Sequence record: OL964735.1
Direction: 5' to 3' (one strand)
From: Escherichia phage T4
DNA length: 64,000 nt
Part shown: piece by piece, positions 10,974 through 62,491 of the stretch
Position numbering within the stretch: the stretch's first letter is position 1
Layout of the letters: the number at the start of each line of letters is the position of its first letter
Position numbers and translations under genes: made by a program
The notes under the pieces: generated by a model
Seen by the model: the letters and a program-made list of their open reading frames with translations, nothing else
The model's database searches: none
What the model was told of the DNA's origin: nothing

Positions 10974-10984
10974 AACTTTTTGAA

Positions 10985-11167: not shown

Positions 11168-11175
11168 ATTAATTC

Positions 11176-11803: not shown

Positions 11804-12003
11804 GATTTATCACCATAGATGTCTCTCATCAATTTAAGCGCTGAGCGTTCTAGTTTCTTTTCTTTCTCAGCACTAATCATTGATTTCATCCATTCTTCTG
11901 ATTCATTCTGCATTTCTTTATTTGCTTGTTCAACCCAACCGTCATCAATATACATTGAGTTTGGTCTATTGAACCATTCAAGCATCTTCTTCAGAACTTT
12001 CAT
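11800..12003 (-). CDS. hypothetical small protein (67 aa)
   Basis: ORF in track. Confidence 0.5.
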
Positions 12004-12475: not shown

Positions 12476-12813
12476 TCACAAGATGTAGATGAACAACTAG
12501 AATCACAAGAACTTCCACATGAATCACCTGCCCATACATGAACAGGAACATTAGTATCATATGAATCAGAACTAGACTGTGTATTCTGTGTGTTAGATGA
12601 TGTAGTAGGTGTTGACCAGCGCCAAGGATTTTTATAATATTCTTGGGCTTCTTCATAAGTCATAGTAACTGCTTCTACTGTTCCATCTCCCATATAAACA
12701 TATTCAACTACAGTTAAAGGAAGGTAGTCATTTGAAATAGGAACTACACCTTCCCCAGGAGTTGTAGAGAAAAAATCCGTAAAGAAACTTTTAAACCAAT
12801 TAAAGATAAACAT
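12472..12813 (-). CDS. hypothetical protein (113 aa) with Ser/Cys-rich C-terminal tail
   Basis: ORF in track; C-terminus ...[18 protein letters not shown]. Confidence 0.5.
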
Positions 12814-13019
12814 TACAAAAAGCCTCTTTTGAATTCGACTTGCTTCTCACCATAATCATATCGAATCTCTGCATTAAATTCGACAGAACCATCTGCGTAC
12901 ATCATAAATGAATGCACAACAACTTCTGTAGACCATGGTTGTAGTTCATATTTCTTCATTACATGTCGTGAAATGATAATATCTAAATCTTCATTTGGTT
13001 TAATCCAACGATTTAACAT
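12813..13019 (-). CDS. hypothetical small protein (68 aa)
   Basis: ORF in track; ATG at 13017-13019. Confidence 0.55.
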   Translation of the reverse strand: MLNRWIKPNEDLDIIISRHVMKKYELQPWSTEVVVHSFMMYADGSVEFNAEIRYDYGEKQVEFKRGFL

Positions 13020-13045
13020 AGTACTCTCCTCTATAAGATAATTCT

Positions 13046-13075
13046 ATTATACCATACTCATTTTGGAAAGTAAAC
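13046..13075 (-). promoter_or_regulatory. T4-type early promoter (-35 GTTTAC 13070-13075, -10 TATAAT 13046-13051)
   Basis: Coordinates anchored to ORF start at 13019 and soc stop at 13118. Confidence 0.7.
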
Positions 13076-13091
13076 CATTTAAATGAAAAAA

Positions 13092-13109
13092 GGACTCCCG
13101 AAGGAGTCC
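13092..13109 (-). terminator. Rho-independent terminator downstream of soc
   Basis: Stem GGACTCC / GGAGTCC with CGAA loop, followed on the transcript by UUUUUU. Confidence 0.8.
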
Positions 13110-13117
13110 TTGAGTTA

Positions 13118-13360
13118 TTAACCAGTTACTTTCCACAAATCTTCATTTGCAGCAATCCATTCAGTACGTTGATTTTCTTCATATACTGTAGAATATGCTG
13201 CTTTTTCTGAAGGGAATGTCTGGTAATGAGCGCCAGAAATTTTGTGAACGTCAGAATAAAGAGGGAAAGCTACAGAAATTTCCTTTCCTTCAATTTTCTT
13301 ATTTCCATCTAATTTCTGCTCAAATGTTTTGATATTAACATAACCGCGAGTACTAGCCAT
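13118..13360 (-). CDS. soc: small outer capsid protein Soc, 80 aa
   Basis: Sequence MASTRGYVNIKTFEQKLDGNKK... matches recalled T4 Soc; late promoter upstream, terminator downstream. Confidence 0.92.
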   Translation of the reverse strand: MASTRGYVNIKTFEQKLDGNKKIEGKEISVAFPLYSDVHKISGAHYQTFPSEKAAYSTVYEENQRTEWIAANEDLWKVTG

Positions 13361-13389
13361 GTAATTCTCCTTTATTTAAATTACATGAT

Positions 13390-13397
13390 TATTTATA
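13390..13397 (-). promoter_or_regulatory. late promoter TATAAATA for soc
   Basis: Minus-strand TATAAATA 30 nt upstream of the soc ATG, overlapping the segF stop codon. Confidence 0.75.
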
Positions 13398-14067
13398 CAT
13401 CTTCTTTTCTGAATAAGTAAATTAAATTCTTAAGAGCCGAACTTGTTACATCATATTTTCCTTTAAGCGCCTTTACAACCGGGCCTGTTGCTGGTTTACC
13501 TAAAGAAACCCATAACTCGTGTATTTCGCTTTTAAGTGGTTCATGCCAATGCGGTGCTTTTCTTTGCGCCCTTGAAGTTCCTTCTGAAATCTTTTTATTT
13601 CCGCCATTCGAATAAAACTTTTTCATTACTTCAGATTGCCGAGCTTTTCTTTCTGCCCTATTTTGGGCTATACGTTGTGAATTCTTCATCCGAGTTTTTG
13701 TTTCAGGATTGTTTAATCTAAGTTTATGTTCTAATCGTTGTTGCTCAGTCCATTTTCTTCCTTCTCCACCCTGACCACCAGGAGAAATATTAATGCAAGT
13801 ATCTGGGTGTTTACGTTTTAATGCAGATATTAGCTCACGTTCAACTTCATATGATTTTTCTCTAGAACCATGGCATTTTGACCATCGTATTTTATAATTA
13901 AATCCATACTTACGATATATGTTCCATAGTATTTTACCTGAACCCGGATATTTATCATTATATGGATTTACAATAAATGATTCATGTTTCCCAGCGTACC
14001 AAAAGACGCCTTTCGGCGTCCTAACTTTTACTATATATGTTCTATAAAATTTTTGTTTAATATCCAT
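13393..14067 (-). CDS. segF: GIY-YIG homing endonuclease SegF, 224 aa from ATG at 14067
   Basis: GIY-YIG-like motifs (TYIV ... VFWYAGKH); between 56 and soc as in T4; track ORF starts at an upstream TTG. Confidence 0.8.
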   Translation of the reverse strand: MDIKQKFYRTYIVKVRTPKGVFWYAGKHESFIVNPYNDKYPGSGKILWNIYRKYGFNYKIRWSKCHGSREKSYEVERELISALKRKHPDTCINISPGGQGGEGRKWTEQQRLEHKLRLNNPETKTRMKNSQRIAQNRAERKARQSEVMKKFYSNGGNKKISEGTSRAQRKAPHWHEPLKSEIHELWVSLGKPATGPVVKALKGKYDVTSSALKNLIYLFRKEDV

Positions 14068-14572
14068 TATCTTGACGTTCAAAATTATGTTTGTTCTTCA
14101 GATAATAAAGTTTAAAGATTTCTTCCGCATTCATTCCAAGGCCAACAAACATATTTAATACGAAATGAAATATATCCACAAGCTCAAATTTAATTTCGAG
14201 CTGGTCTTCGGGGGACATTTCATCAATGCGTTTTTCTTGCGCTTCAATATAACGTGCTTTCCATTTTTTCCATACAGCAGAAGCTTCTTTTTCACCACGT
14301 GACATTTCACCAAGAGAAGTCAGAAGTTCGCGGAATTCATCATCAATACAGTCTTTTTGTTCACGCATCCAAGAAACAACATCACCGGCAGTTTCTAATT
14401 TATCTGGATGATAGCAGTATTCGCGGACATTAGCCAAACGAATCTGTAAAGACCGCTGCATATCAAGCATAACTTGCAGCGGATCTTTTTCATCACCGAG
14501 AATATCCCAGTATTCATTTTGAGCTTTATCAACACCTTCGATCAAATGAGCACATTCATTAAAGTGAGCCAT
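14057..14572 (-). CDS. 56: dCTP pyrophosphatase (dCTPase) gp56, 171 aa
   Basis: Track ORF begins at TTG; ATG at 14570-14572 gives MAHFNECAHLIEG..., 171 aa as recalled for T4 gp56. Confidence 0.85.
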   Translation of the reverse strand: MAHFNECAHLIEGVDKAQNEYWDILGDEKDPLQVMLDMQRSLQIRLANVREYCYHPDKLETAGDVVSWMREQKDCIDDEFRELLTSLGEMSRGEKEASAVWKKWKARYIEAQEKRIDEMSPEDQLEIKFELVDIFHFVLNMFVGLGMNAEEIFKLYYLKNKHNFERQDNGY

Positions 14573-14632
14573 TAGTTTTCCTTTCAATTCATTAATAAGT
14601 TAAATAATTATATCATTTGAGTATGTAAGCAA

Positions 14633-15421
<789 letters not shown>

Positions 15422-15524
15422 TCATTTATTGCAGCAAAAATGAATTATACAATTCTTCATCATATGTATTTGATAGTAATACTAACACGTTTTGCGATAA
15501 ATATTAATTTAAAGGAGGATATAT

Positions 15525-15725
15525 ATGGTACAAAAATTAATGGCACTTGTTAATGCCATAAAAGGTAATAAGAAACGTATAGCTTTTACTATTTCTGCTA
15601 TGGTAGGAATTTTACTCTGGAACTTTATTTTATCACCTGTTGCAATTGCACATGGTGTTAATATTCCAGTAGTTACTCTTGATACATTCGTAGATTTAGC
15701 ATTTGCTTTAGTTGGGTTAATTTAA
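15525..15725 (+). CDS. hypothetical small membrane protein (66 aa), the only plus-strand gene candidate in the window
   Basis: Strong SD AAAGGAGG 15511-15518, 6 nt before ATG 15525; two hydrophobic segments; sits in the 310-nt dam-61 gap; stop TAA 15723-15725 interlocks with the gene 61 stop in the palindrome TTTAAA. Confidence 0.55.
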   Translation: MVQKLMALVNAIKGNKKRIAFTISAMVGILLWNFILSPVAIAHGVNIPVVTLDTFVDLAFALVGLI

Positions 15726-16750
15726 ATCTTAGCATATTTAGATAGCCGCATTTTAGCCATTAACCCCTGGGCAATATTATTTTTCATATATTCCATAATT
15801 TGTTCAGGGGTTGCACCTTCCTTTCTAATCATATCATTAACATCTTTTGATTTCCAGGGAGATTTATCCCAAAACATAACCCTTTCTCCTGCATCAACTA
15901 ATTTAGTCATTCGTTTAATAGTGTCAGGGTGACGAGGTTCATTATCTAAGACCCACACACGTCTATCTTTAAATGGAACAACTTCTAGGTCTAATTGACC
16001 GCCCGTAATAGCTATACCATTTTCAATAAAAAGTGAATCTATAGGTCCTTCTAGAACATATACATCACCATCTTTAACTCGTTCGACTCCATAGATTTTT
16101 GTTGCCTCAGGATAAGCTTTGATGGTGATATATTTTTGAGGAGCATCTTTCTTTAATGCACGTCCTTGAAAAGACTCAGCTTTTCCATTAGCATTATAAA
16201 TTGGAATAACAAGACGAGGCTCAGAAATTTCCTTTTTGTATGTTCCCGGTGCTATGCTATTAACTAATTTAGGCCATTCGGTTGTAAACCAAAGATATTT
16301 CCATTTATCCTTTGGAATACAACGAGCTTTTACGTATTTTATAATTGGATGGTCTTCCGCCAGTTTATCTAATCTAACACATGACGGAAGAGATTTAATT
16401 ATTTTCTTCTCGGGTTGTTTAGGAAGTTCTTTAGGTTTTTCTATTGGACGACTTTTACCTTTTTCTTTTCTTATTTCAAAGATATACTCACGATATAAAT
16501 CGGGTTCAAACTCCTTTAAATATATTCCGATTGGTGCATGATAGTTACAGTTATAACAATGAATATTTCCTTCATTATTATCACCATAATACCATCCACG
16601 GGCTTTATTCTGGTCGGTTTTTGAATCTCCACAAACAGGGCATCTAAACCGTAATTTAAAAGTTGAACTATTATTTACTTGTGTGAATTTAGGTAAATGA
16701 GCTAATGCACGGTATGCAAACTCATTATCAATCCAAGGTATTGATGACAT
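15722..16750 (-). CDS. 61: DNA primase gp61, 342 aa
   Basis: Zinc-finger CPVCGDSK...C..C; length and sequence match recalled T4 gp61. Confidence 0.92.
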   Translation of the reverse strand: MSSIPWIDNEFAYRALAHLPKFTQVNNSSTFKLRFRCPVCGDSKTDQNKARGWYYGDNNEGNIHCYNCNYHAPIGIYLKEFEPDLYREYIFEIRKEKGKSRPIEKPKELPKQPEKKIIKSLPSCVRLDKLAEDHPIIKYVKARCIPKDKWKYLWFTTEWPKLVNSIAPGTYKKEISEPRLVIPIYNANGKAESFQGRALKKDAPQKYITIKAYPEATKIYGVERVKDGDVYVLEGPIDSLFIENGIAITGGQLDLEVVPFKDRRVWVLDNEPRHPDTIKRMTKLVDAGERVMFWDKSPWKSKDVNDMIRKEGATPEQIMEYMKNNIAQGLMAKMRLSKYAKI

Positions 16751-16752
16751 TT

Positions 16753-16917
16753 TTACTCTTCTTTTTCTTTAGATTCCTCTTTTTTCTTTTTAGGAATCTG
16801 TTCAGGACCTTTATTTACTACAGCGCCTGATGTTGTTCCAGTAGAGATATTTTCAGGATTACCACCTGAATCTCCAGCGACCATATCTTCTTTGATAAAT
16901 TCTTTAAATGTTTTCAT
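16753..16917 (-). CDS. hypothetical 54-aa protein (positional 61.1) with capsid-targeting-sequence-like N-terminus
   Basis: Hand translation MKTFKEFIKEDMVAGDSGGNPENISTGTTSGAVVNKGPEQIPKKKKEESKEKEE; coordinates anchored to gene 61 start and the stop of the 16919 ORF. Confidence 0.5.
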   Translation of the reverse strand: MKTFKEFIKEDMVAGDSGGNPENISTGTTSGAVVNKGPEQIPKKKKEESKEKEE

Positions 16918-16918
16918 A

Positions 16919-17545
16919 TTAACCTCTATTCATAAAAGCATTAAAAATTTGGTCATCAATAGAAACATTTACTTTAGGCTGTTTTTCAGATGGCAATTCA
17001 TATCCACATATTACAATTTTATGATCAATATCAAAATACACAGAAGCAATATGATTAATGATATTTTCAGTAAAGTCTAAATCAACATCAATATCTTTTT
17101 GACCAAAGCCCAAAGGATAAATAATGCGAGTAATTCGATTATCTTTAACAAAGATTCCACCGACATACTCTGTGCTGCGTTTAAAGTCTACACGCCGACG
17201 AAATGAAAAATATTCAGGCTCTTTATGAGCTCGGCTCATAGGACACAACGAATAACTAGAATAAGAGATGTCAAATCCTACGCCTTCAATATGAACTAAA
17301 TTGTCATGATTAAACCAATTATAATCATATGCCAAGTCCATTAGATTGTCATATGTGAAAGGCACCGGATTAACATCATTGGTCACAAGCATATAATTAG
17401 CAACTGCTATAATTTCATTATTTTTAACGAATACAAACCGTGATTGATGCGAATGGCCTGGACCTGCGTTTTCACGATTAATGATATAACACTGGGCACC
17501 TTTATATTTGTACGTGTCTTTACACTTGTGCATTTGATAAAGCAT
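16919..17545 (-). CDS. hypothetical protein (208 aa; positional 61.2)
   Basis: ORF in track; member of the 61.x small-gene cluster. Confidence 0.65.
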   Translation of the reverse strand: MLYQMHKCKDTYKYKGAQCYIINRENAGPGHSHQSRFVFVKNNEIIAVANYMLVTNDVNPVPFTYDNLMDLAYDYNWFNHDNLVHIEGVGFDISYSSYSLCPMSRAHKEPEYFSFRRRVDFKRSTEYVGGIFVKDNRITRIIYPLGFGQKDIDVDLDFTENIINHIASVYFDIDHKIVICGYELPSEKQPKVNVSIDDQIFNAFMNRG

Positions 17546-17838
17546 TATTCACCTACCACTTCAGCGATGATATTTTTGTTATTAAAGTTTTTATCGCAAT
17601 ACAGAACATAATTATACTGCATTACACCACCAGACTTAAGCTGTTTTTGCACTTCAGCTTTCATTTCAGGACGATCACGCTTAACGATATTCATAATATC
17701 TGCTTCAATTTGAGTTTCAACCTCAGTCTGATCCGCAGTCATAGACCATTCGCACAAATCTTTATCATAACCTGCCATAGCAGGCTGAGCAGCACAAGAA
17801 GCTAAAGCAAAAATTGTAGCAAAGATGAATTTTTTCAT
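17545..17838 (-). CDS. sp: Spackle periplasmic protein (97 aa)
   Basis: N-terminal signal peptide MKKFIFATIFALASCAAQPAMA; size and position match T4 sp. Confidence 0.8.
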   Translation of the reverse strand: MKKFIFATIFALASCAAQPAMAGYDKDLCEWSMTADQTEVETQIEADIMNIVKRDRPEMKAEVQKQLKSGGVMQYNYVLYCDKNFNNKNIIAEVVGE

Positions 17839-17898
17839 GATAATCTCCTCAGTAGTTTATGTTTATATAGTATCTCAATTTCCAACAAAAGTAAACAG

Positions 17899-18156
17899 TT
17901 ATTTTAAAATTTCTGCGTAATCACATGTTACAAACTGTTTCTCTAACTTGACGATTTTACGAAAGTATCTTTTGCATTGGCGAATCTGCCTCTTCGTAGG
18001 GCGAACAGCAAACTTAATAAATTCCACTCGACCAAATGGAGGGCTTTCTTCTGCTGGAATATCTAACACCAATTCCCACGTATCTGCAATAAGTGCTTTG
18101 AATTGCGTATTTTTCCTGACGTTATACGGAGTAGGTTTAAATAAAACAATATGCAT
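17899..18156 (-). CDS. hypothetical basic protein (85 aa; positional 61.4)
   Basis: Track ORF starts inside dmd; ATG at 18154-18156 (MHIVLFKP...) has SD GAGGA and sits 1 nt from the dmd stop. Confidence 0.6.
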   Translation of the reverse strand: MHIVLFKPTPYNVRKNTQFKALIADTWELVLDIPAEESPPFGRVEFIKFAVRPTKRQIRQCKRYFRKIVKLEKQFVTCDYAEILK

Positions 18157-18157
18157 A

Positions 18158-18340
18158 TTATCCTCGGCAATCCACTTCACATACTTTCTTGTCATCAATG
18201 AAAGCTTTAACTAATGCTTTATTAACTTCAGCATATTGAGTAGTAGCCCATTGAACGTCATCTTTCATCATTGTGATTTCTTTAGTAAACATGCTTTCAT
18301 TCTTAAACCACCCCATAAAAACTACCTTTACCAATTCCAT
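18158..18340 (-). CDS. dmd: Dmd (discriminator of mRNA degradation; antitoxin against host RnlA/LsoA), 60 aa
   Basis: 60-aa ORF MELVKVVFMGWFKNESMF... matching recalled T4 Dmd; directly downstream of gene 41. Confidence 0.8.
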   Translation of the reverse strand: MELVKVVFMGWFKNESMFTKEITMMKDDVQWATTQYAEVNKALVKAFIDDKKVCEVDCRG

Positions 18341-18369
18341 AACAATCTCCTCATTTAACCGACAAGACT

Positions 18370-18399
18370 ACTATACCATAGTCTTGTCAGCTTGTAAAC
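18370..18399 (-). promoter_or_regulatory. T4-type early promoter (-35 GTTTAC 18394-18399, -10 TATAGT 18370-18375)
   Basis: -35 overlaps the gene 41 stop codon; inverted repeat GACAAGACTA/TAGTCTTGTC flanks the -10. Confidence 0.7.
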
Positions 18400-19826
18400 T
18401 AAAATTTTAATTCATTCGCCAAAGCATCTAACTGAGCTCGAGTCGATTCATTTCTTTGATAGCGATTCTGCTCAGCCTGAATCTGTTGTGAACCTGCTAC
18501 TTCGTTCACTTCAGTTGGAGTAGAATCTTGTTCAATTTCTACCCATTTTTGATTTCCTTTTTGAACACCCATCAAAAACTTATTCCACTTATTCTTATCA
18601 CCATATCGTGATTTGATTTGCTTAATGAGTTGTTGTTCAGCAGCTGCTAGCTCCTCGGTTTCAATGACCGCAAGCATAAAATCGGCTGTTGCTGGAAGAC
18701 CGGCAGATTCTGCAATATCGCTCATGTTAACATCGGAAGAGTCCCAAGCTTGTTTACCAACCTGTGCTGCAGTCCAAAGAACAGTTTCGGTTTCAACAGC
18801 CAGAGCACGTAATTCCTCTGCAATAGCTTTAACAGTTGTGTAACTATTTTCTGAATAAACTCTAATGCGGCAAGATTTACAAATACCTAGATAGTCGACA
18901 ATAATGATTGTTGGAACAAAATTCTTCTTGAGCTTCAATTCGTTTAAAAGTGATCGAAATGTATTAGCGTCTGCTCCACCAGTAGGATACTGTTTAACGA
19001 TTAAACGACCAAGAGTAGATTTCTCACGCCATTTTTCCATTTTTCCTTTATACTCAGCGTAAGAAATATGCCCATCATCAATGTCATCAAGAGAAACATC
19101 AAGCATATTAGCGTCAATACGTTTAGCACAGACTTCTTCTGCCATTTCCATGGAAATGTAAAGAACATTATGTCCGAGCTGTAAATAATCTGCCGCTAAT
19201 GAACACAATCCTAATGATTTACCAACGTTAACGCCAGCCATTAAAACGTTCAGTGTTCCAGTTTCAGCTCCGCCTTTCGTAATTTTGTTCAGAATTCTGA
19301 GTTTAAATGGAACCTTACGAGCTTTATTCATATAAGATAGCCAACGTGCTTCGTAGTCATCCATCCAATCATGACCAACGTAACTATCAAATGAAATTGA
19401 TAATGCCTGGCGCATGATGTCAGGAATAGCACCAACATCCGGCATTTTCTTATTTCGTTTTTCCGGAGGAAGCTCAGCATTAGTTTGAATTTCGATTATT
19501 TTAGACGTAGCATTAAACATCGCCCTTTGCTGAACATATTTTTCTGTTTCTTTTACTAACCAGCTGTGGTCTTCCGGAGAATCAGCCAGTTTTGAAATAA
19601 GTGTTTTTACACCAGAATATTCTGTTTCAGTAAATGAACTATTTTCTAATGCAACATTTAACGCATTAATAGATGGAACGCTATGGTACTCATTAACATG
19701 AGATTTAATTAATTTGAATGTATTTTTAGCTGGACCACTTTCAAAATATTCTGAATCCATATATGGCCAAACTTTTGAAAAATAAGCTTGATCAAATATG
19801 AGATGAGAAAGAATAATTTCTACCAC
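18399..19826 (-). CDS. 41: replicative DNA helicase gp41 (DnaB-like), 475 aa
   Basis: Length and N-terminus MVEIILSHLIFDQAYF match T4 gp41; first codon reads GTG with SD AAGGAG 4 nt upstream. Confidence 0.9.
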   Translation of the reverse strand: MVEIILSHLIFDQAYFSKVWPYMDSEYFESGPAKNTFKLIKSHVNEYHSVPSINALNVALENSSFTETEYSGVKTLISKLADSPEDHSWLVKETEKYVQQRAMFNATSKIIEIQTNAELPPEKRNKKMPDVGAIPDIMRQALSISFDSYVGHDWMDDYEARWLSYMNKARKVPFKLRILNKITKGGAETGTLNVLMAGVNVGKSLGLCSLAADYLQLGHNVLYISMEMAEEVCAKRIDANMLDVSLDDIDDGHISYAEYKGKMEKWREKSTLGRLIVKQYPTGGADANTFRSLLNELKLKKNFVPTIIIVDYLGICKSCRIRVYSENSYTTVKAIAEELRALAVETETVLWTAAQVGKQAWDSSDVNMSDIAESAGLPATADFMLAVIETEELAAAEQQLIKQIKSRYGDKNKWNKFLMGVQKGNQKWVEIEQDSTPTEVNEVAGSQQIQAEQNRYQRNESTRAQLDALANELKF

Positions 19827-55752: not shown

Positions 55753-55936
55753 TATTCCACCTAATCATTTCAAGATATTGAACTAACTTAGCTTTGGATT
55801 TATCCAAATCCCTTTTAGCTGCTTCTATACCGTCGTATGAATATCCTTCACAATGCTCAACTGCTAATTGATATGAATCTATTTCAATATCATGCGCTAA
55901 TTTAATGATTTTTTCAAACTGTTCGCGTGTTAGCAT
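55742..55936 (-). CDS. hypothetical 64-aa protein, member of small helical paralog family
   Basis: ORF in track; MLTREQFEKIIKLAHDIE... Confidence 0.55.
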   Translation of the reverse strand: MLTREQFEKIIKLAHDIEIDSYQLAVEHCEGYSYDGIEAAKRDLDKSKAKLVQYLEMIRWNNEN

Positions 55937-55938
55937 AC

Positions 55939-56121
55939 TTAAACTCTCGTATTATGATCGATAATTTCATCAAGAAACATATCTAACGCTTCTACAGCAT
56001 TATTAACTTTAGCTTCAAATTCTTCAATACCTGATAAGGCAAAGTTAATGCGTTCCTCATCTGCTTTACGAATTAAAGCTACCAATTCCTTAATTTTATC
56101 CGCTTGTTCGATACTAATCAT
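55939..56121 (-). CDS. hypothetical 60-aa protein, member of small helical paralog family
   Basis: [19 protein letters not shown]... chosen over the upstream track start. Confidence 0.5.
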   Translation of the reverse strand: MISIEQADKIKELVALIRKADEERINFALSGIEEFEAKVNNAVEALDMFLDEIIDHNTRV

Positions 56122-56309
56122 TATTCCACCACATATGAAAGAGAGAATATTGCACACGCCATGTGAGTTGCAACTTCATCACACATATTATAACGTTTCT
56201 TAAGAAGTTCTACAAGTTCTTCACTAGTAACTTCATCCATGTCGACGAAAAAATCACCATTAATGATGACGTAGATATTTCCTTCTTGATTGAGTGCTTC
56301 AATTTTCAT
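56121..56309 (-). CDS. hypothetical 62-aa acidic protein
   Basis: Track ORF starts at TTG inside promoter 56338-56367; first ATG ([10 protein letters not shown]...) has SD GAGGAG 6 nt upstream. Confidence 0.5.
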
Positions 56310-56337
56310 GATGTTCTCCTCTTTATCCGATGGTTGT

Positions 56338-56367
56338 ATAGTACCACAGCTCAAACGGAAAGTAAAC
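56338..56367 (-). promoter_or_regulatory. T4-type early promoter (-35 GTTTAC 56362-56367, -10 TACTAT 56338-56343)
   Basis: Anchored between the ATG at 56309 and the stop at 56406. Confidence 0.7.
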
Positions 56368-56384
56368 CGGTAAAATGAAAAAAA

Positions 56385-56400
56385 GTCTCCCGAAGGAGAC
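56385..56400 (-). terminator. Rho-independent terminator after the 56406 ORF
   Basis: Stem GTCTCC / GGAGAC with CGAA loop, followed on the transcript by UUUUUUU. Confidence 0.8.
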
Positions 56401-56405
56401 TAATG

Positions 56406-56792
56406 TTATTCGAGGGAAAGAAGATACTTACTCTGGTAAAACATTCCAGTAATATCATCTATCGTGCTTTGGATGGCTGGAGGCATTTCTTTATAAATGC
56501 TGTTAGATTGGTCTAGTATGCGATCAATCATTTTAATTGTGTCGGTAGGAAGTTTACTGGCATCTGGAATTGAAGGCGTGTATTTTCGACCAGAATACCC
56601 CAAATATTGCTCACCAAATTTATCAATCAAATCTGGCAACTCGGAAAAAATAAAATCGTATGCTTTGTGTCTAGCATAACTTTTAGTTTCAAAATGTGCA
56701 GAATGAAAATAAGCTTGTGCAGCCATTAATAAACCTAAGTATTCATCTGCCTTTGAAGGTTTTCCACTTTGTGAAAAGTCGCTGAATTTCAT
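56406..56792 (-). CDS. hypothetical protein (128 aa)
   Basis: ORF in track; ATGA overlap with rI. Confidence 0.55.
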   Translation of the reverse strand: MKFSDFSQSGKPSKADEYLGLLMAAQAYFHSAHFETKSYARHKAYDFIFSELPDLIDKFGEQYLGYSGRKYTPSIPDASKLPTDTIKMIDRILDQSNSIYKEMPPAIQSTIDDITGMFYQSKYLLSLE

Positions 56793-57082
56793 TCAGTCTC
56801 CAATTTAATGTTCATAATTCTAGCGTATGATTGTGCCATCTCCGCGCCTCGCTCTATACATTCAAAATCAGAAGAGCACGGGTCATTTTTATAGGTCGTT
56901 CTCATAAAACTATAGAATTGTTCAGACGATTCTACGCTTTTATTTTCAAAAAGCATATAAACGTGCCTAATACCAGATTCCATAAATTTATCAAAATGAG
57001 GATCGACATTCGCTTCAATCGATGGAGATAAAACAAATGACAATCCTAGCATGGCAAAAAGTGCTGTTGCTTTTAAGGCCAT
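56789..57082 (-). CDS. rI: RI lysis-inhibition antiholin, 97 aa
   Basis: Sequence MALKATALFAMLGLSFVLSPSIEANVDPHFDKF... with signal-anchor matches recalled T4 RI. Confidence 0.9.
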   Translation of the reverse strand: MALKATALFAMLGLSFVLSPSIEANVDPHFDKFMESGIRHVYMLFENKSVESSEQFYSFMRTTYKNDPCSSDFECIERGAEMAQSYARIMNIKLETE

Positions 57083-57094
57083 AAAGGCCTCCTA

Positions 57095-57307
57095 TCATTT
57101 TTGTCCTGTATTTACTTTGTGCCGATGCACGGCCTTAACTTTATCAAGGTATTTTTCAAAATTTCGCAATCTAGTATAGTCTGCCGGAGATTGGTTGAGT
57201 GATACTTCTCGACGCAAAGCTGAAATGATATTTCCAACTTCCCTACGAATTTCATCTAATTGAAGAACAGTAAGATTGCGAAGTTGCTTTTCAGTTAATT
57301 GTAGCAT
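57095..57307 (-). CDS. hypothetical small protein (70 aa; positional rI.1)
   Basis: ORF in track. Confidence 0.5.
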
Positions 57308-57349
57308 ATATACCCCTTTAGTTAGATAAACCTATTTATAACTTTTGCA

Positions 57350-57931
57350 CTAACCGAGCTTTTTAGTTAATTCATTCCAATGTTTTCTACACAAAGAAAC
57401 ATAAATTTCATCACCAATACAAATTTGATTACCTTCTTTAACTGGTGTTCCATCTTCCATTAATCGAGCTGTCATAATCGCTTTTTTACCACAATGACAA
57501 ACTGCTTTTAGTTCAATAAGTTTATCTGCAATCGCTAAAAGTTCTTTAGAACCTTCAAATAATTTTCCAGCGAAATCAGTCCTTAGCCCATAAGCCATAA
57601 CAGGAACATTATATGTATCAACAATTCGGCTCAATTGATGCACCTGTTCAGTTTTTAAAAACTGAGCTTCATCTACAAATACGCAATGAATATCTTTTTG
57701 TGCTTCAGCCCATTTATAGAACTCGAAAATATCCATATCATCTGTAATAATATTCGCTTCCTGCTTAATTCCAATGCGAGAAACGACTTCACAGACAGAA
57801 TCGCGAGTATCAATAGCAGGCTTAAGAACTAATACACTCATTCCACGTTCTTTATAATTATGTGCAGCAGTCAAAAGAGAAGCAGATTTTCCAGCATTCA
57901 TTGCTGCATAAGTAAAAATTAAACTCGCCAT
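57350..57931 (-). CDS. tk: thymidine kinase, 193 aa
   Basis: P-loop AAMNAGKSASLL and Zn-ribbon CxxC...CxxH at the C-terminus; matches T4 Tk. Confidence 0.92.
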   Translation of the reverse strand: MASLIFTYAAMNAGKSASLLTAAHNYKERGMSVLVLKPAIDTRDSVCEVVSRIGIKQEANIITDDMDIFEFYKWAEAQKDIHCVFVDEAQFLKTEQVHQLSRIVDTYNVPVMAYGLRTDFAGKLFEGSKELLAIADKLIELKAVCHCGKKAIMTARLMEDGTPVKEGNQICIGDEIYVSLCRKHWNELTKKLG

Positions 57932-57932
57932 C

Positions 57933-58121
57933 TTAGTCCTTAGTTAAATTTTCTAAATATGTTTCTAAATCATTTTCAGCTTTATCGATAGATTTTACTA
58001 ATTCGTAATATGTTTCGGCATCTCCATATTCAGAAGATATTTCAAAAGACAAATCCTTTTCTAAACTAATAATTTCACCAACTAAAAATAATATTTCGTT
58101 CTTTTGTTCGCGAGTAATCAT
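57933..58121 (-). CDS. hypothetical 62-aa protein, member of small helical paralog family
   Basis: MITREQKNEILFLVGEI... Confidence 0.55.
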   Translation of the reverse strand: MITREQKNEILFLVGEIISLEKDLSFEISSEYGDAETYYELVKSIDKAENDLETYLENLTKD

Positions 58122-58309
58122 AAGGAATTTATATAATCAATGAGTTCTTGTTCTTTATTATCGAATTCTTTAGAAAGTTCTTCGTACTCGTTTGCGCTAA
58201 AAGGACCGCATTCATTACAAACTTTTTCCAATTCACTATTTTTATCCATAACTTCGTGGATAAGAGAAAAGAGTGTGTCTTTTTGTTCTTTGCTTAAACT
58301 CATAACCAT
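58118..58309 (-). CDS. hypothetical 63-aa protein, member of small helical paralog family
   Basis: M..SLSKEQKDTLFSLIHEV...; ATGA overlap with the previous ORF. Confidence 0.55.
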   Translation of the reverse strand: MVMSLSKEQKDTLFSLIHEVMDKNSELEKVCNECGPFSANEYEELSKEFDNKEQELIDYINSL

Positions 58310-58527
58310 GTCACCTTTAAGCAGTATTCTTCTACATGCTGTTTACGACCTTTCTTATCAATAAAGGTATATTCAACGAATGTTCCAATGTAGTCTTTAT
58401 CTACATCATGTGGACTATTAATTGGACATTTAGTGCGACAAATGCGTTCCCATTGACGAATAATTACTGCCTTATTCTTTGGGTCATATGGATGTGGATA
58501 ATGTATATTCATAATAATGGTTCCCAA
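58300..58527 (-). CDS. hypothetical small protein (75 aa)
   Basis: ORF in track. Confidence 0.5.
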   Translation of the reverse strand: MGTIIMNIHYPHPYDPKNKAVIIRQWERICRTKCPINSPHDVDKDYIGTFVEYTFIDKKGRKQHVEEYCLKVTWL

Positions 58528-58976
58528 TCAACAATCACAATTTCTAATTTAGAGGAATATGTATCTAAAATCCCCTCAATAATATCCCAGTTCCCTTTAC
58601 CTATGCCTGCACCAATCCTAGGCATATAGATTGTAGGTTTAATCAGTTTATTTTCACCAAACTCATTTAATTCTAACATACAATTCATTAAAGCGGAATA
58701 CTCAAAATTTGGCCCTGGTTGAAATTGAGTATAAAGATTGAAGCAGTAAGCTTTATGAGTCCTAAAGTATTTTTCATAGACTGAGTAAGAACCGAGTTTA
58801 GTTACATCACCCCATTCAGTCTGTAATTTATCAGCTTCCAAAATTTTAGGGAAAGCTTTGGTTAATTGACCCGCTACGCCTGAACCCATAGTATGAAAAC
58901 AATTACATCCATGTGCAATATTTTTACCTTCAGCGAAAAGGGCGACAATATCGCCCTTGATATATTTTACAATCAT
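58509..58976 (-). CDS. macro-domain-like protein (155 aa), putative ADP-ribose binding/hydrolase
   Basis: N-terminal KGDIVALFAEGKNIAHGCNCFHTMGSGVAGQL resembles the macro-domain GDI...AAN...GGGV.GAI signature. Confidence 0.55.
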   Translation of the reverse strand: MIVKYIKGDIVALFAEGKNIAHGCNCFHTMGSGVAGQLTKAFPKILEADKLQTEWGDVTKLGSYSVYEKYFRTHKAYCFNLYTQFQPGPNFEYSALMNCMLELNEFGENKLIKPTIYMPRIGAGIGKGNWDIIEGILDTYSSKLEIVIVDWEPLL

Positions 58977-59320
58977 CTAGTACTCAATCCTCGATTATAA
59001 GAATCTACCAAACGGTCAACCATTGAATGACAAGCGGCTTTATCTTTCTCCTCCGCAACTGAACATTCTAAGGTATTCCACTTTTTAGCATATCGTTTTA
59101 ACAATGTATCGTTTTTGTATCTGCTTGATTTATCTCTTTCTCCGTCTTTATATGCATATATTAATTTCTGTGCAAATTCAGCTTGGCATGCCTTATTTTT
59201 CCCACAATAATCTGCCGCAGTGCGGTTTACATATTCTCTAATTTCAGTATATGATGTATCTGCTGACGCAGAAGCAGAAAATGAAATTAATCCTATACAT
59301 AAAACCAAAATTTTAGTCAT
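58973..59320 (-). CDS. secreted small protein (115 aa) with signal peptide and 4 Cys
   Basis: Signal peptide MTKILVLCIGLISFSASASA; ATGA overlap with neighbours. Confidence 0.55.
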   Translation of the reverse strand: MTKILVLCIGLISFSASASADTSYTEIREYVNRTAADYCGKNKACQAEFAQKLIYAYKDGERDKSSRYKNDTLLKRYAKKWNTLECSVAEEKDKAACHSMVDRLVDSYNRGLSTR

Positions 59321-59858
59321 TTACTATTTCCAAAAGTTTATTATTTTTAAGGTAATTAGCCTTTTCTAGGACTTCAGAAGCATATTTAGAACCTGCTTTA
59401 ACATTCCATCCCGAATTATAAGAGGATATTGCTTTTCTTATATCGCCCTTATGTATATTTAACCAATAAGAAAGTTCAATGTACGCCCAGGAAGCTGAAT
59501 TGGATCGTTTATTCAACATTCTTTTTATTTCAGCATCGGTCATATTATAACCAAGTTCCTTAACTCTTGCTCGCATAGTAGGCAAATAATTTTGGAACAT
59601 TCCGTAGGCGTGATGCTTTGGTTTAGATTTTAAATTAACTCCGCCAGAGCTTTCTTGCCATAAAATGGCAGCCATTATATGACCTAATCCGCTCTTGTGG
59701 ATATTTTTGTGTGTTTTATATTTTCCATCCTTAGAAAATTGTTCCCCGAATTGATACGCGTAACGCATGTTATCGAGTTGGACATTACTGAAAGTATGCT
59801 CGGAGCTATGTGCCATCATTGAAATGGCCAATAGACCAGCGAGTAGTGCTTTTCTCAT
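59313..59858 (-). CDS. periplasmic soluble lytic transglycosylase (SLT)-like protein, 181 aa
   Basis: Signal peptide MRKALLAGLLAISMMAHS; SLT motifs ES (LWQESSG), GMFQ, SYNSG. Confidence 0.7.
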   Translation of the reverse strand: MRKALLAGLLAISMMAHSSEHTFSNVQLDNMRYAYQFGEQFSKDGKYKTHKNIHKSGLGHIMAAILWQESSGGVNLKSKPKHHAYGMFQNYLPTMRARVKELGYNMTDAEIKRMLNKRSNSASWAYIELSYWLNIHKGDIRKAISSYNSGWNVKAGSKYASEVLEKANYLKNNKLLEIVND

Positions 59859-59865
59859 GCTTACC

Positions 59866-60327
59866 TCATTGAGTTTTAATTACTGCTTTAGAAGCCTTTC
59901 CTGGTAAACGACGACTGTTGATAATTGCCATCCTACATTGAAGTGACGGGTCTTTGAACTTCTCGTTAGGTTTACAAACTGTAAATCCAAGCCAAAGATT
60001 TCCATCTGTGATTTCTAAACGTCCAGGACGATATTCAACCCCATCAATAAAATCCTCGTCAATGTCAGGACGCGGAGGCATACTCAGGAATTCATTAACT
60101 TCTAAAACATGGTCTTTTATTTTATGGAATAATTCAAAAACGTATGTCTCATCAATCTCCCGTTGAATTGCGCGATCAAGAAGATGTTGAGAATATTTTA
60201 GATGAAACGATGAGACTCCTGCTGCTTTTGATGCCTCACGAATCTCATTGTTAATTTGACGAAACTCCGACTCAAAGTGACGACGAAGCTTATTTCGACG
60301 GATAAAAACTTCTGTATTGATAGTCAT
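59866..60327 (-). CDS. regB: RegB sequence-specific endoribonuclease, 153 aa
   Basis: Length, position and N-terminus MTINTEVFIRRNKLRRHF match recalled T4 RegB. Confidence 0.88.
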   Translation of the reverse strand: MTINTEVFIRRNKLRRHFESEFRQINNEIREASKAAGVSSFHLKYSQHLLDRAIQREIDETYVFELFHKIKDHVLEVNEFLSMPPRPDIDEDFIDGVEYRPGRLEITDGNLWLGFTVCKPNEKFKDPSLQCRMAIINSRRLPGKASKAVIKTQ

Positions 60328-60354
60328 GTTATTCTCCTCTTAACTGATAGAAAA

Positions 60355-60384
60355 ATTATACCACAGTCAAGAGGAAAAGTAAAC
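60355..60384 (-). promoter_or_regulatory. T4-type early promoter for regB (-35 GTTTAC 60379-60384, -10 TATAAT 60355-60360)
   Basis: Anchored between the regB ATG and the stop at 60387. Confidence 0.75.
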
Positions 60385-60386
60385 AG

Positions 60387-60665
60387 TTATTCTTTAAATC
60401 TAATCAATTTATTCATAGACTTTGAAACTTCGGCACGAACCTCATGTAGATTTTTGAGCTGTTCAAGACGCTGCGTATAGTAAGCAATTTCATCTTCTTC
60501 GAGACAGTCCTGCGAATCTTCTTTAAGATAACGTGCATAGTCCTGGAAAGCGTTACGGACTACTTCCTGGAAGTCATCAAGACTTTGAATTTTCTTAGGA
60601 GCAACAGATACACGACGAGGGGCAGTATAATACTCATAACCAAACCCTGCGCTTAATTGAGCCAT
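60387..60665 (-). CDS. hypothetical 92-aa protein (positional vs.3)
   Basis: [16 protein letters not shown]... forms a TAATG overlap with the upstream ORF stop. Confidence 0.55.
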
Positions 60666-60931
60666 TAGTATTTTTCCTCTGGTTGGAACACTGCACGACA
60701 AGCCCACATACTGGCTTCTTTGAGTTTCGTTTTAGCAATAGTTAACTGATCGAGACTTTCAGCATAATTCTTCGCGAATTCACAGTCTTCGCAATTATCT
60801 AGTGCTTCCCAGAATTCATCATATAAAGCATCAAAGATAAGTCCTAAACGAACTTCAGCGTCTTTAATAGCATTTACTTTACCGATTTTCTCTTCAGTAT
60901 GTGGTTTATAACCCTTAATATCTTCAATCAT
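60665..60931 (-). CDS. hypothetical 88-aa helical protein (positional vs.4)
   Basis: [18 protein letters not shown]... with SD GAGGAAG. Confidence 0.55.
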
Positions 60932-61145
60932 ATTTGACTTCCTCACCAGTACATAAATCGTATTCAACTAAACGAATAGGTTCATGAATGCCATAGCCTT
61001 GAACAGAAATTTCTGTCGTAGGATAAATTCCATCAATATCACCCATATTCCACGCTTCATTAAATTGCTGTTCGCCTGAGTTACTAAACCACTCGGCGAA
61101 AGCATTTAGCACATCTTCAGAACCTTCAATAATTATCTTTGCCAT
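60924..61145 (-). CDS. hypothetical small acidic protein (73 aa; positional vs.5)
   Basis: ORF in track. Confidence 0.5.
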   Translation of the reverse strand: MAKIIIEGSEDVLNAFAEWFSNSGEQQFNEAWNMGDIDGIYPTTEISVQGYGIHEPIRLVEYDLCTGEEVKYD

Positions 61146-61507
61146 TACAAACTTTCAGTAAAGGTACGAGCGATAACGTCGCGCTGCTGTTCCGGAGTCA
61201 GAGAGTTAAAGCGAACTGCATAACCGGATACACGGATGGTCAGCTGCGGATATTTTTCCGGATGCTTAACTGCATCTTCCAGAGTTTCACGACGCAGAAC
61301 GTTAACGTTCAGGTGTTGACCACCTTCAATTTTAACTGTAGGTTGTGGCTCAATTTCAATTTCACGGGCATGCAAACCATAGAAAATTTCTGGGTCTACA
61401 AAAGAGTCCTCTTTAAAGGTTTTAGAGACAATAATTCGTGCTTGAATACCATCTTCAAAATAAATAGTACCTTTATGTGTGCCTTCAAGAATTTGATATG
61501 CTTTCAT
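61145..61507 (-). CDS. autonomous glycyl-radical cofactor (GrcA/YfiD-like) protein, 120 aa (positional vs.6, T4 Y06I-like)
   Basis: C-terminal [29 protein letters not shown] glycyl-radical motif; the 3' half is GC-rich with host-like codon usage. Confidence 0.8.
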
Positions 61508-61514
61508 ATAAACC

Positions 61515-61844
61515 TCAATTAGAAAATAAATTTATCCAAGATTGTTCTTTAATTAAAAATGGCTCAGAATCATATGCCATTAAACTTTGCGTAATTAATC
61601 CTTTAAAAGGTCCATCAATAAATTCCATGGTAAAATATGGAATTTTATTCATTAGCCGTGCATTAGGAGCAGTGCACAAAACTCTGCATCCTTTGAATAC
61701 GCCTTTTTGTAATTTGTATTGCTTGGGATAAAATTCGCTCAAAATGTTATTTTTTGCCAAAATTTCAAAATGATTCACCAATTTATTTTTAATAGTTTTT
61801 GGCGAAAAATAAAGATATTCGAAAAGCTGAGTGTCTGTCATCAT
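61515..61844 (-). CDS. hypothetical protein (109 aa from ATG at 61844; positional vs.7)
   Basis: [13 protein letters not shown]... forms an ATGA overlap with the upstream ORF stop. Confidence 0.5.
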
Positions 61845-62491
61845 TGCATTCCGATTACGAAAAACTGTGGACGAGTAATACCACCAATGCAACATTTACT
61901 ATTACAGCAGTAGTGTACGGTGTCAATATGGACACTATAAATCTTATCCATATCAGGAGATTTGACAGGCTCATCAATTATATACAAAATTCGCGAAAGC
62001 TTTAAACCTCTGAACTTGCTTCCTTTATTACCAATAAAACTGCGTACAGAATCAGTAAATAAACGAAAACGTATATCATCATTAGAATAACGCGAAAATT
62101 CCTTTTTGATGTTATTTGCAGAAATTTTAGCATAAGCTGAAGTATTAGAAAGAACAATAACTGTTCCGCCATCATACAACCAATTAGCAGCAAAGTTAGT
62201 CACAGCAATTGATTTACCGGATTGACGTCCACCATCTAGTCGAAGTGTACAATACTGTTTAAGTAAGTCTTCAAATGGCGGGATATATTCGTTTTTACAA
62301 ATTTCTTCTACTCTAGCATCAGAATGGTGTGTAAAAGCATTCATCAGGGATAGATAAGGACCAGTTAAAAATGTTCTCATTTCTTCTCTATAAGTTTGGG
62401 CCATTCCGTGGCGCATGAATTGTCCATTTCTGTATTTACCCATTACCGCGCTTGGGCTCGACCTTATTACAGGTTGGCGGGAATCCCTCAT
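61841..62491 (-). CDS. P-loop NTPase-like protein (up to 216 aa; start uncertain; positional vs.8)
   Basis: Walker A LDGGRQSGKS and Walker B-like ILYIIDEP; several candidate ATG starts. Confidence 0.55.
   Translation of the reverse strand: MRDSRQPVIRSSPSAVMGKYRNGQFMRHGMAQTYREEMRTFLTGPYLSLMNAFTHHSDARVEEICKNEYIPPFEDLLKQYCTLRLDGGRQSGKSIAVTNFAANWLYDGGTVIVLSNTSAYAKISANNIKKEFSRYSNDDIRFRLFTDSVRSFIGNKGSKFRGLKLSRILYIIDEPVKSPDMDKIYSVHIDTVHYCCNSKCCIGGITRPQFFVIGMQ

What the first reader, a model, noticed from the sequence alone, without database searches (positions are those of the whole stretch)
58509..58976. Macro-domain-like ORF in a genome that also encodes ADP-ribosyltransferases
The 155-aa ORF begins MIVKYIKGDIVALFAEGKNIAHGCNCFHTMGSGVAGQL, resembling the macro-domain signature (GDI...AAN...GGGV.GAI) of ADP-ribose-binding/hydrolysing enzymes. 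The same window encodes ModA and ModB ADP-ribosyltransferases. A phage macro domain could reverse ADP-ribosylation of phage or host targets, including DNA ADP-ribosylation by DarT-type defenses.
Basis: inference. Interest (0 to 1): 0.5.

Follow-up and report, generated by a model that had tools for sequence, protein, structure and literature searches.

The report
T4 Tk.4 (AdfM) macrodomain, anti-DarTG2
The ORF is phage T4 gene tk.4, a genuine ADP-ribose-handling macrodomain already reported (as AdfM) to protect T4 from the DNA-ADP-ribosylating defence DarTG2, so the finding is correct but not new.

Summary

It is already known. A November 2025 preprint (HIDEN-SEQ) found tk.4 as the only T4 gene needed on a DarTG2 host. 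A clean knockout sensitised T4, and the gene was renamed adfM. No biochemistry on the T4 protein was found.

What I add:
- Tk.4 is not a DarG-type macrodomain. An invariant Gln84 replaces the catalytic lysine, and there is no DarT-binding domain.
- It shares His, Asn and Gln with SCO6735, a Gln-dependent thymidine-ADP-ribose DNA hydrolase.
- Its closest biochemically tested relative (35% identity) is phage Adpp, an ADP-ribose-1''-phosphate phosphatase. The functional His and Asn are conserved.

The suggested link to ModA/ModB is not supported. They lie 48 kb away, and Tk.4-like genes are far more widespread than ModB-like genes.

Most likely mechanism, inferred: hydrolysis at ribose C1'' removes ADP-ribose from thymidine in phage DNA. 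A phosphatase activity is possible as well.

The parts
58509..58976 (-). tk.4 / adfM coding sequence, 155 aa, a stand-alone macrodomain
58950..58958 (-). K7-G8-D9, N-terminal 'GD' motif. Its Asp is conserved across TARG1, DarG, SCO6735 and Adpp. By analogy it probably contacts adenine (inferred).
   Evidence: Translation. Conservation tables.
58902..58913 (-). H22-G23-C24-N25. His and Asn are equivalent to SCO6735 H24/N27 and Adpp H24/N27.
   Evidence: Translation. N25 is invariant in 151/151 homologues and H22 is present in 147/151. hhalign to SCO6735. SCO6735 N27S nearly abolishes activity (PMC9411070). The Adpp H24A and N27A constructs are listed, and mutations in Adpp abolish anti-aRES function.
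58869..58886 (-). G31-S-G-V-A-G36, the glycine-rich loop after strand 2 (the 'GGG' loop of macrodomains) that lines the ADP-ribose cleft
   Evidence: Translation. G33 and A35 are invariant. Pfam Macro alignment covers residues 22-132.
58830..58832 (-). D49, invariant in the Tk.4/Adpp clade. It is Asp in yeast Poa1p but Tyr in DarG, SCO6735, BT1257 and PhiKZ gp104. Its role is unknown.
58725..58739 (-). N80-L-Y82-T83-Q84. Gln84 occupies the position of the catalytic Lys of TARG1 (K84) and DarG (K80), and of Gln85 of SCO6735.
   Evidence: Profile alignment to TARG1. MAFFT alignments. hhalign to SCO6735. Q84 invariant in 71/71 and 80/80 homologues. SCO6735 Q85A is inactive.
58587..58622 (-). P119-R-I-G122-A-G124-I-G-K-G-N-W130, the phosphate-binding loop (GxG...GG.W)
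   Evidence: Translation. G122, G124 and W130 are invariant or nearly so. It aligns with SCO6735 G126/G128.
58973..58976 (-). ATGA overlap of the vs stop and the tk.4 start, a tight operon-like junction
   Evidence: annotation.
58509..58512 (-). ATGA overlap of the tk.4 stop and the tk.3 start
   Evidence: annotation.

Best explanation
The ORF is phage T4 gene tk.4, recently renamed adfM. It encodes a stand-alone 155-aa macrodomain of the TARG1/ALC1-like class. It is made from the tightly packed vs-tk.4-tk.3-tk.2-tk.1-tk gene run. Its demonstrated biological role (published genetics) is to make T4 resistant to the host toxin-antitoxin defence DarTG2, whose toxin DarT2 ADP-ribosylates thymidine in single-stranded DNA. 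The most likely mechanism is inferred, not shown for this protein. Tk.4 binds the ADP-ribose moiety in the canonical cleft formed by D9, the G31-G36 loop and the G122-W130 loop. It then hydrolyses the bond at C1'' of the distal ribose, releasing ADP-ribose and restoring thymidine, so that phage DNA can be replicated. The chemistry would not be the lysine-based chemistry of DarG or TARG1. The catalytic Lys position is an invariant Gln (Q84), held next to invariant N25 and H22. The same arrangement is seen in SCO6735, where Gln85 and Asn27 are required for thymidine-ADP-ribose hydrolysis and a water-mediated mechanism was proposed. The nearest biochemically tested relative, phage Adpp, cleaves the 1''-phosphate of ADPR-1''-phosphate. 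Tk.4 probably therefore acts on 1''-substituted ADP-ribose more generally and may also have that phosphatase activity.
Against: No enzymatic assay of T4 Tk.4 was found. The preprint itself only says DNA de-ADP-ribosylation 'seems likely'. Tk.4 is only a weak match to DarG models: NCBIfam DarG 30.3 bits against cut-off 250, and PADLOC DarG 36 bits against 133 bits for PhiKZ gp104. It lacks the catalytic Lys and the two DNA-contacting lysines of SCO6735; K34 and K89 correspond to S32 and to about G88. Its clade-specific residues (C26-F27, D49, Y82) are shared with a small-molecule phosphatase (Adpp), not with the known DNA hydrolases. The genetic evidence comes from a preprint using plasmid-borne DarTG2 at 30 C in minimal medium.
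Confidence: 0.68

Rival explanations
1. Tk.4 is primarily an ADP-ribose-1''-phosphate phosphatase acting on a small molecule, like phage Adpp and yeast Poa1p. Its effect on DarTG2 would then be secondary or would run through a route other than direct DNA repair.
Against: T4 tk.4 is not in a NARP1 operon. Its neighbours are vs and tk.3, and no Escherichia phage appears in the table of NARP1-linked macro genes. Without NARP1, dephosphorylating ADPR-1P does not rebuild NAD+. DarT2 is not known to make ADPR-1P. The only phenotype found for tk.4 is DarTG2-specific. Many macrodomains carry both activities, so this rival is not exclusive of the best explanation.
Confidence: 0.15
2. Tk.4 protects by binding rather than by catalysis. 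It would either inhibit DarT2 directly or shield or sequester the modified DNA or NAD+-derived ligand.
For: Catalytically dead SCO6735 (Q85A), DarG (K80A) and TARG1 (K84A) still inhibit DarT in vitro, with SCO6735 the strongest (PMC9411070). T4 AdfA-type factors act by binding the toxin (PMC11825919).
Against: Active-site residues are strictly invariant in 151 homologues, including at least 80 bacterial stand-alone genes with no DarT2 nearby. That pattern argues for a conserved enzymatic function. Tk.4 lacks the C-terminal DarT-binding domain of DarG; the match covers only profile positions 2-146 of 338.
Confidence: 0.1
3. Tk.4 reverses or tunes the phage's own ADP-ribosylation by Alt, ModA or ModB on host proteins or RNA-linked targets.
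For: ModA and ModB are in the same genome and window. Macrodomains are general ADP-ribose erasers.
Against: There is no genomic linkage; the genes are 48 kb apart. Tk.4-like genes occur in 2750 phage records against 1010 with ModB-like genes. They include Pseudomonas, Vibrio, Acinetobacter and Aeromonas phages, which are absent from the ten commonest organism names among ModB hits. They also occur in at least 520 bacterial species. Alt and Mod enzymes modify arginine (annotation; review text), and from general knowledge TARG1-class macrodomains are not known to cleave arginine-ADP-ribose. tk.4 was not reported as required outside the DarTG2 condition.
Confidence: 0.04

Closest known systems
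T4 Tk.4 = AdfM (anti-DarT factor Macrodomain), HIDEN-SEQ preprint, bioRxiv 10.1101/2025.11.20.689424
   Same: It is the same gene and protein: 155/155 identity to T4 tk.4. Its role against DarTG2 was shown by a transposon screen and a clean knockout.
   Different: Nothing differs in sequence. The preprint infers a DarG-like mechanism from fold similarity. It does not report biochemistry, the Gln-for-Lys substitution, or the relationship to Adpp.
Adpp, the NARP1-associated ADPR-1''-phosphate phosphatase of Vibrio phage Gary (bioRxiv 10.64898/2026.01.28.702374), and yeast Poa1p
   Different: Adpp sits between Adps and Namat and works with them against the NADase aRES, whereas tk.4 has no such neighbours. 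The reported phenotype of Tk.4 is against DarTG2, not aRES. Residue 83 is Thr in Tk.4 and Gly in Adpp. By a one-residue shift of the printed ungapped alignment (my reading), Poa1p appears to have Ser rather than Gln at position 84.
SCO6735 (Streptomyces coelicolor) and BT1257, stand-alone Gln-type TARG1-like macrodomains
   Different: Only about 22-29% identity. Tk.4 lacks the DNA-contacting K34 and K89. It has Asp49 and Tyr82 where SCO6735 has Tyr and Ile.
DarG antitoxin macrodomain (M. tuberculosis, T. aquaticus) and the DarG-like PhiKZ gp104, also named AdfM
   Different: The catalytic Lys (FPTK motif) is replaced by Gln. There is no C-terminal DarT-binding domain and no adjacent darT. NCBIfam DarG scores 30 bits against cut-off 250, and PADLOC DarG 36 bits against 133 for gp104. 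Pairwise BLASTP to gp104 aligns only 23 residues. gp104 matches Mtb DarG at E 9e-25, whereas Tk.4 matches it at 6e-3.
Human TARG1/OARD1
   Same: Top Foldseek hit and same class. TARG1 also cleaves thymidine-ADP-ribose (PMC12879935).
   Different: The TARG1 catalytic dyad K84/D125 corresponds to Q84/G126 in Tk.4, and TARG1 has Ser where Tk.4 has N25.

Membership tests
Macro domain superfamily (Pfam PF01661) | Profile score above the curated gathering threshold | tested here: met
   27.7 bits against 22, E 2.9e-6, covering residues 22-132 and profile positions 2-113 of 118.
Macro domain superfamily (Pfam PF01661) | Three-layer alpha/beta/alpha macro fold | tested here: met
Macro domain superfamily (Pfam PF01661) | ADP-ribose-binding loops: a Gly-rich loop after strand 2 and a GxG phosphate loop | tested here: met
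   G31-S-G-V-A-G36 and G122-A-G124...G128 are present. G33, G122 and G124 are invariant.
Macro domain superfamily (Pfam PF01661) | Binding of ADP-ribose | not testable with these tools
   Needs ITC or a co-crystal structure.
DarG antitoxin (NCBIfam NF048014 / PADLOC DarG) | Equivalog score above cut-off | tested here: not met
   30.3 bits against cut-off 250. PADLOC DarG gives 36 bits, against 132.9 for PhiKZ gp104.
DarG antitoxin (NCBIfam NF048014 / PADLOC DarG) | Catalytic lysine (K80 of T. aquaticus DarG) in the FPTK motif | tested here: not met
   Gln84 sits at that position and is invariant in the family.
DarG antitoxin (NCBIfam NF048014 / PADLOC DarG) | C-terminal DarT-binding domain and an adjacent darT gene | tested here: not met
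   The protein ends after the macrodomain, and the match covers only profile positions 2-146 of 338. The neighbours are vs and tk.3. No DarT2-like gene was found near 80 bacterial homologues.
SCO6735/BT1257-type Gln macrodomains (thymidine-ADP-ribose DNA hydrolases) | Gln at the catalytic-Lys position, with the supporting Asn and His | tested here: met
   Q84, N25 and H22 align with Q85, N27 and H24.
SCO6735/BT1257-type Gln macrodomains (thymidine-ADP-ribose DNA hydrolases) | DNA-positioning lysines K34 and K89 | tested here: not met
   Tk.4 has S32 and about G88 at those positions.
SCO6735/BT1257-type Gln macrodomains (thymidine-ADP-ribose DNA hydrolases) | Hydrolysis of thymidine-linked ADP-ribose on ssDNA | not testable with these tools
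   Needs the purified protein and a DarT2-modified oligonucleotide.
Adpp / PHROG 335 (phage Poa1p-like ADPR-1''-P phosphatases) | Sequence membership | tested here: met
   PHROG 335 E 1.3e-65. 35% identity and 77 bits to Gary Adpp, and 84 bits to the phiAbaA1 homologue.
Adpp / PHROG 335 (phage Poa1p-like ADPR-1''-P phosphatases) | Functionally required His24 and Asn27 | tested here: met
   H22 and N25 align with them. The mutant constructs are listed, and loss of function is reported.
Adpp / PHROG 335 (phage Poa1p-like ADPR-1''-P phosphatases) | Location inside a NARP1 operon (Adps-Adpp-Namat) | tested here: not met
   tk.4 is flanked by vs, vs.1, tk.3, tk.2, tk.1 and tk. No Escherichia phage appears in the NARP1-macro table.
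Adpp / PHROG 335 (phage Poa1p-like ADPR-1''-P phosphatases) | ADPR-1''-P phosphatase activity | not testable with these tools
   Needs an LC-MS assay on the purified protein.
T4 AdfM (tk.4) as defined in the HIDEN-SEQ preprint | Being the T4 tk.4 gene product | tested here: met
   155/155 identity and the same genomic position.

The most novel reading that the evidence does not exclude
T4 AdfM and the phage phosphatase Adpp belong to one Gln-type macrodomain family (signature HxCNCF...AD...NxY[TG]Q). This family would be a general eraser of 1''-substituted ADP-ribose. The same active site would both strip ADP-ribose from thymidine in DNA (anti-DarTG2) and dephosphorylate ADPR-1''-phosphate (anti-aRES). 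One small protein family, present in about 5% of sequenced phage genomes and in hundreds of bacterial species, would then counter two mechanistically unrelated NAD+-based defences. It would derive from a stand-alone bacterial housekeeping macrodomain rather than from a captured DarG antitoxin. Neither of the two preprints appears to connect the two proteins.
Probability: 0.3. Interest if true: 0.5.

Novelty: already known. Interest (0 to 1): 0.25.

Why it matters
As posed, the finding re-discovers a gene whose macro-domain nature is already in database annotation. Its anti-DarTG2 role was published in late 2025, so it adds little by itself. The remaining value is mechanistic. The T4 protein is not a DarG look-alike. 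It carries Gln instead of the catalytic Lys, and its nearest tested relative is a phosphatase for a small NAD+ breakdown product. Two questions follow. Can one phage macrodomain family defeat two different NAD+-dependent defences? And how is a base-ribose bond cleaved without the lysine? Both are directly testable with existing substrates.

Tried and rejected
1. Single-sequence AF2 gave a useless model (pLDDT 38.6). I repeated it with a 71-sequence alignment.
2. The sigma-70 promoter and terminator scan around the gene found no more sites than shuffled sequence (15 against 14.8 expected), so it says nothing about expression.
3. I looked for DarT2 next to 80 bacterial homologues by tblastn with a P. 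aeruginosa DarT2 and found nothing below E 2.6. One query has limited sensitivity.
4. Clustering of neighbouring ORFs in those loci found only lineage-specific housekeeping synteny and no recurrent partner.
5. Net charge and pI as a proxy for DNA binding were uninformative. Tk.4 has pI 5.9, but the validated DNA hydrolase PhiKZ gp104 is also acidic.
6. A C-terminal fragment query to the PDB recovered only part of SCO6735. The full SCO6735 sequence came from querying with BT1257.
7. MAFFT on a small set misaligned BT1257 around the NMIGQ motif. The profile, hhalign and larger alignments agree on Q-to-Q. hhalign against PhiKZ gp104 is off by one residue in a low-confidence stretch, so I relied on the MAFFT and HMM alignments there.
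8. The NJ distance tree was used only for nearest-neighbour distances. The topology of such short, divergent sequences was not interpreted.
9. I considered and rejected two ideas: that adjacency to thymidine kinase is functionally meaningful (no evidence), and that Tk.4 is a DarG-derived orphan antitoxin (its defining features were not met).

Full report
OBSERVATION. The window is phage T4. A 3.1-kb stretch around the finding is 100% identical to several T4 records. The ORF at 58509-58976 on the minus strand (155 aa) is annotated there as tk.4, 'conserved hypothetical protein' AAD42667.1. It sits in the co-oriented gene run regB - vs.1 - vs - tk.4 - tk.3 - tk.2 - tk.1 - tk, and the protein is 155/155 identical to the reference. 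Its start overlaps the stop of vs, and its stop overlaps the start of tk.3, each as ATGA, so it is part of a tightly packed, probably co-translated block.

IS IT A MACRODOMAIN? Yes.
- Pfam Macro PF01661 is matched above the curated threshold: 27.7 bits against 22, E 2.9e-6, across nearly the whole profile.
- PHROG 335 ('phosphatase') is matched at E 1.3e-65.
- The sequence alone finds solved macrodomains: BT1257 at 1.3e-9, yeast Poa1p, SCO6735, DarG and TARG1. A profile of 71 homologues raises these to E 9e-19 through 8e-12.
- A single-sequence AlphaFold run failed (pLDDT 38.6). With the alignment, the model has pLDDT 95.1 and pTM 0.91.
- Foldseek against the PDB ranks TARG1, Poa1p, BT1257 and DarG first.

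WHAT IS ALREADY KNOWN. A bioRxiv preprint of November 2025 (10.1101/2025.11.20.689424) screened a T4 transposon library on E. coli expressing DarTG2. [quoted passage not shown] The gene was renamed adfM, anti-DarT factor Macrodomain. From fold similarity to M. tuberculosis DarG, the authors state that removal of ADP-ribose from DNA 'seems likely'. An earlier paper had shown that T4 lacking adfA (61.2) and adfN (30.3) remains DarTG2-resistant, and predicted another factor (PMC11825919). I found no biochemical study of the T4 protein.

WHAT KIND OF MACRODOMAIN? IT IS NOT A DarG.
- The curated DarG equivalog model scores 30.3 bits against a cut-off of 250, and covers only the macro part (profile positions 2-146 of 338).
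- PADLOC's DarG model gives 36 bits for Tk.4 but 132.9 bits for PhiKZ gp104.
- gp104 is a different phage macrodomain that was independently also named AdfM. It was shown biochemically to remove DarT2-made ADP-ribose from DNA (PMC13309987).
- gp104 matches M. tuberculosis DarG at E 9e-25 and carries the FPTK catalytic-lysine motif. Tk.4 and gp104 align over only 23 residues by BLASTP.
- In three independent alignments, the catalytic lysine of TARG1 (K84) and DarG (K80) corresponds to Gln84 of Tk.4, and TARG1 D125 corresponds to G126.
- Gln84 is invariant in 71 phage/metagenome homologues and in 80 of 80 bacterial genomic homologues, together with N25, D49, Y82, G122 and G124; H22 is present in 147 of the 151.

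A PRECEDENT FOR Gln CHEMISTRY. SCO6735 of Streptomyces coelicolor is a stand-alone TARG1-like macrodomain that cleaves thymidine-linked ADP-ribose from DNA and protects against DarT. It has Gln85 at the lysine position. Q85A or Q85E abolishes activity and N27S nearly does, and a water-mediated mechanism was proposed (PMC9411070). I recovered its sequence from the PDB through its close homologue BT1257. hhalign of the Tk.4 family against it gives 98.6% probability. Tk.4 AHGCN aligns with SCO6735 AHVCN, NLYTQ with NMIGQ, and IGAG with IGCG. Tk.4 therefore has the His-Asn-Gln arrangement of a proven thymidine-ADP-ribose hydrolase. It lacks the two lysines (K34, K89) that position DNA in SCO6735.

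AN UNEXPECTED CLOSER RELATIVE. A January 2026 preprint (10.64898/2026.01.28.702374) describes Adpp, a Macro protein encoded inside NARP1 NAD+-reconstitution operons of some phages. Purified Adpp of Vibrio phage Gary converts ADPR-1''-phosphate to ADPR. ADPR-1''-phosphate is the product of the RES-domain defence aRES. Mutations in Adpp abolish the counter-defence, and the H24A and N27A constructs are listed in the supplement. The sequences are in the supplementary table.
- Tk.4 is 35% identical to Gary Adpp (77 bits) and to the NARP1-linked macro of Acinetobacter phage phiAbaA1 (84 bits). This is clearly closer than to BT1257, SCO6735, TARG1 or DarG (distances).
- A residue table shows that Tk.4 and Adpp share H22, N25 and Q84. 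They also share the clade-specific C26-F27, D49 and Y82.
- DarG, gp104, SCO6735 and BT1257 have Tyr at the D49 position, while Poa1p has Asp.
One sequence family (PHROG 335) therefore holds a member with a genetic anti-DarTG2 phenotype (T4) and a member with a biochemical ADPR-1''-P phosphatase activity (Gary). Neither preprint mentions the other protein.

CONTEXT AND DISTRIBUTION. tk.4 has no ADP-ribose-related neighbour. vs.1 has an SLT domain, tk.3 is DUF7202, tk.1 and tk.2 are DUF7438 paralogues, and tk is thymidine kinase. There are no Adps or Namat genes nearby, and no Escherichia phage is listed among the NARP1-macro operons.
- Homologues occur in 2750 of 50,697 phage records across many genera.
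- Homologues occur in at least 520 bacterial or archaeal species genomes, mostly as stand-alone ORFs with a median length of 155 aa.
- No DarT2-like gene was detected near the 80 best loci, and they have no recurrent neighbour.
- ModB-like genes occur in only 1010 phage records, and the ten commonest organism names among them are all enterobacterial phages. The macrodomain is therefore not coupled to Mod-type transferases.

MECHANISM.
- Shown here: the macro fold and the conserved active-site residues.
- Shown in the literature: tk.4 is required for T4 growth on DarTG2 hosts.
- Inferred: Tk.4 binds the ADP-ribose on N3 of thymidine in phage single-stranded DNA and hydrolyses the C1'' bond. It would use the Gln84/Asn25/His22 site as in SCO6735, restoring replicable DNA. 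The phosphatase reaction of Adpp also removes a substituent from C1'' of ADP-ribose, so a shared active site acting on both substrates is plausible but untested.
- Rivals: a primary small-molecule phosphatase role (0.15), non-catalytic inhibition of DarT2 as seen for dead SCO6735 and DarG in vitro (0.10), and reversal of ModA/ModB/Alt marks (0.04).

VERDICT. The ModA/ModB link is not supported. Novelty: already known. The residual interest lies in the Gln-type active site and in the family link between AdfM(T4) and Adpp. These suggest a testable dual-substrate eraser, and they show that two unrelated macrodomain lineages now share the name AdfM.

Noticed in passing
window 16919-17545 (-): Gene 61.2 matches Pfam PF23813 'Anti-DarT factor A' (AdfA) at E 4e-137. 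The same window therefore carries a second, unrelated anti-DarT gene. The third, adfN (30.3), lies outside the window.
   Followed up: partly
window 58830-58832, 58731-58733, 58896-58901 (-), inside tk.4: D49, Y82 and C26-F27 are invariant in the Tk.4/Adpp clade. At the D49 position DarG, PhiKZ gp104, SCO6735 and BT1257 have Tyr, while yeast Poa1p also has Asp. At the Y82 position they have Pro or Ile. The role of these residues, for example as a mark of phosphatase specificity, is unexplained. I could not inspect their 3D position relative to C1''.
   Followed up: partly
literature, not a window feature: The name AdfM has been given independently to two remote macrodomains. One is T4 Tk.4 (Gln-type, closest to Adpp, then SCO6735/BT1257). 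The other is PhiKZ gp104 (Lys-type, DarG-like). BLASTP between them aligns only 23 residues.
   Followed up: yes
window 57933-58121 and 58118-58309 (-): tk.1 and tk.2 are adjacent paralogues. Both match DUF7438 and overlap by 4 nt, so they look like a small tandem duplication of unknown function.
   Followed up: no
window 59313-59858 (-): vs.1 has an SLT lytic transglycosylase domain (E 1.4e-5) and a hydrophobic, signal-peptide-like N-terminus. The neighbouring Vs protein (58973-59320) also starts with a signal-like hydrophobic segment.
   Followed up: no
window about 19787-55800: The offset between window and AF158101 coordinates is 2213 at window 9287-19787 but 2413 at 55800-61901. The window therefore lacks about 200 bp relative to that reference somewhere in between. 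There are also 11 mismatches per 10.5 kb. The source is a T4 stock or variant, not AF158101 itself.
   Followed up: partly
window 58869-58871 (-), codon 36 of tk.4: A study of T4 laboratory sublines lists a tk.4 missense polymorphism Ser36Gly (PMC8573959). The window and AF158101 both have Gly36, the family consensus, in the Gly-rich ADP-ribose loop.
   Followed up: partly
literature on T2 tk.4: A 2026 preprint reports the host sRNA ArcZ contacting the T2 tk.4 transcript in RIL-seq, with no change in protein level. It describes tk.4 as a 'putative thymidine kinase', which is a mis-annotation.
   Followed up: no
window 58938-58958 (+): A terminator-like hairpin followed by a T-run lies on the plus strand, antisense inside tk.4. 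The number of such sites in the region does not exceed the shuffled expectation, so it is probably chance.
   Followed up: no
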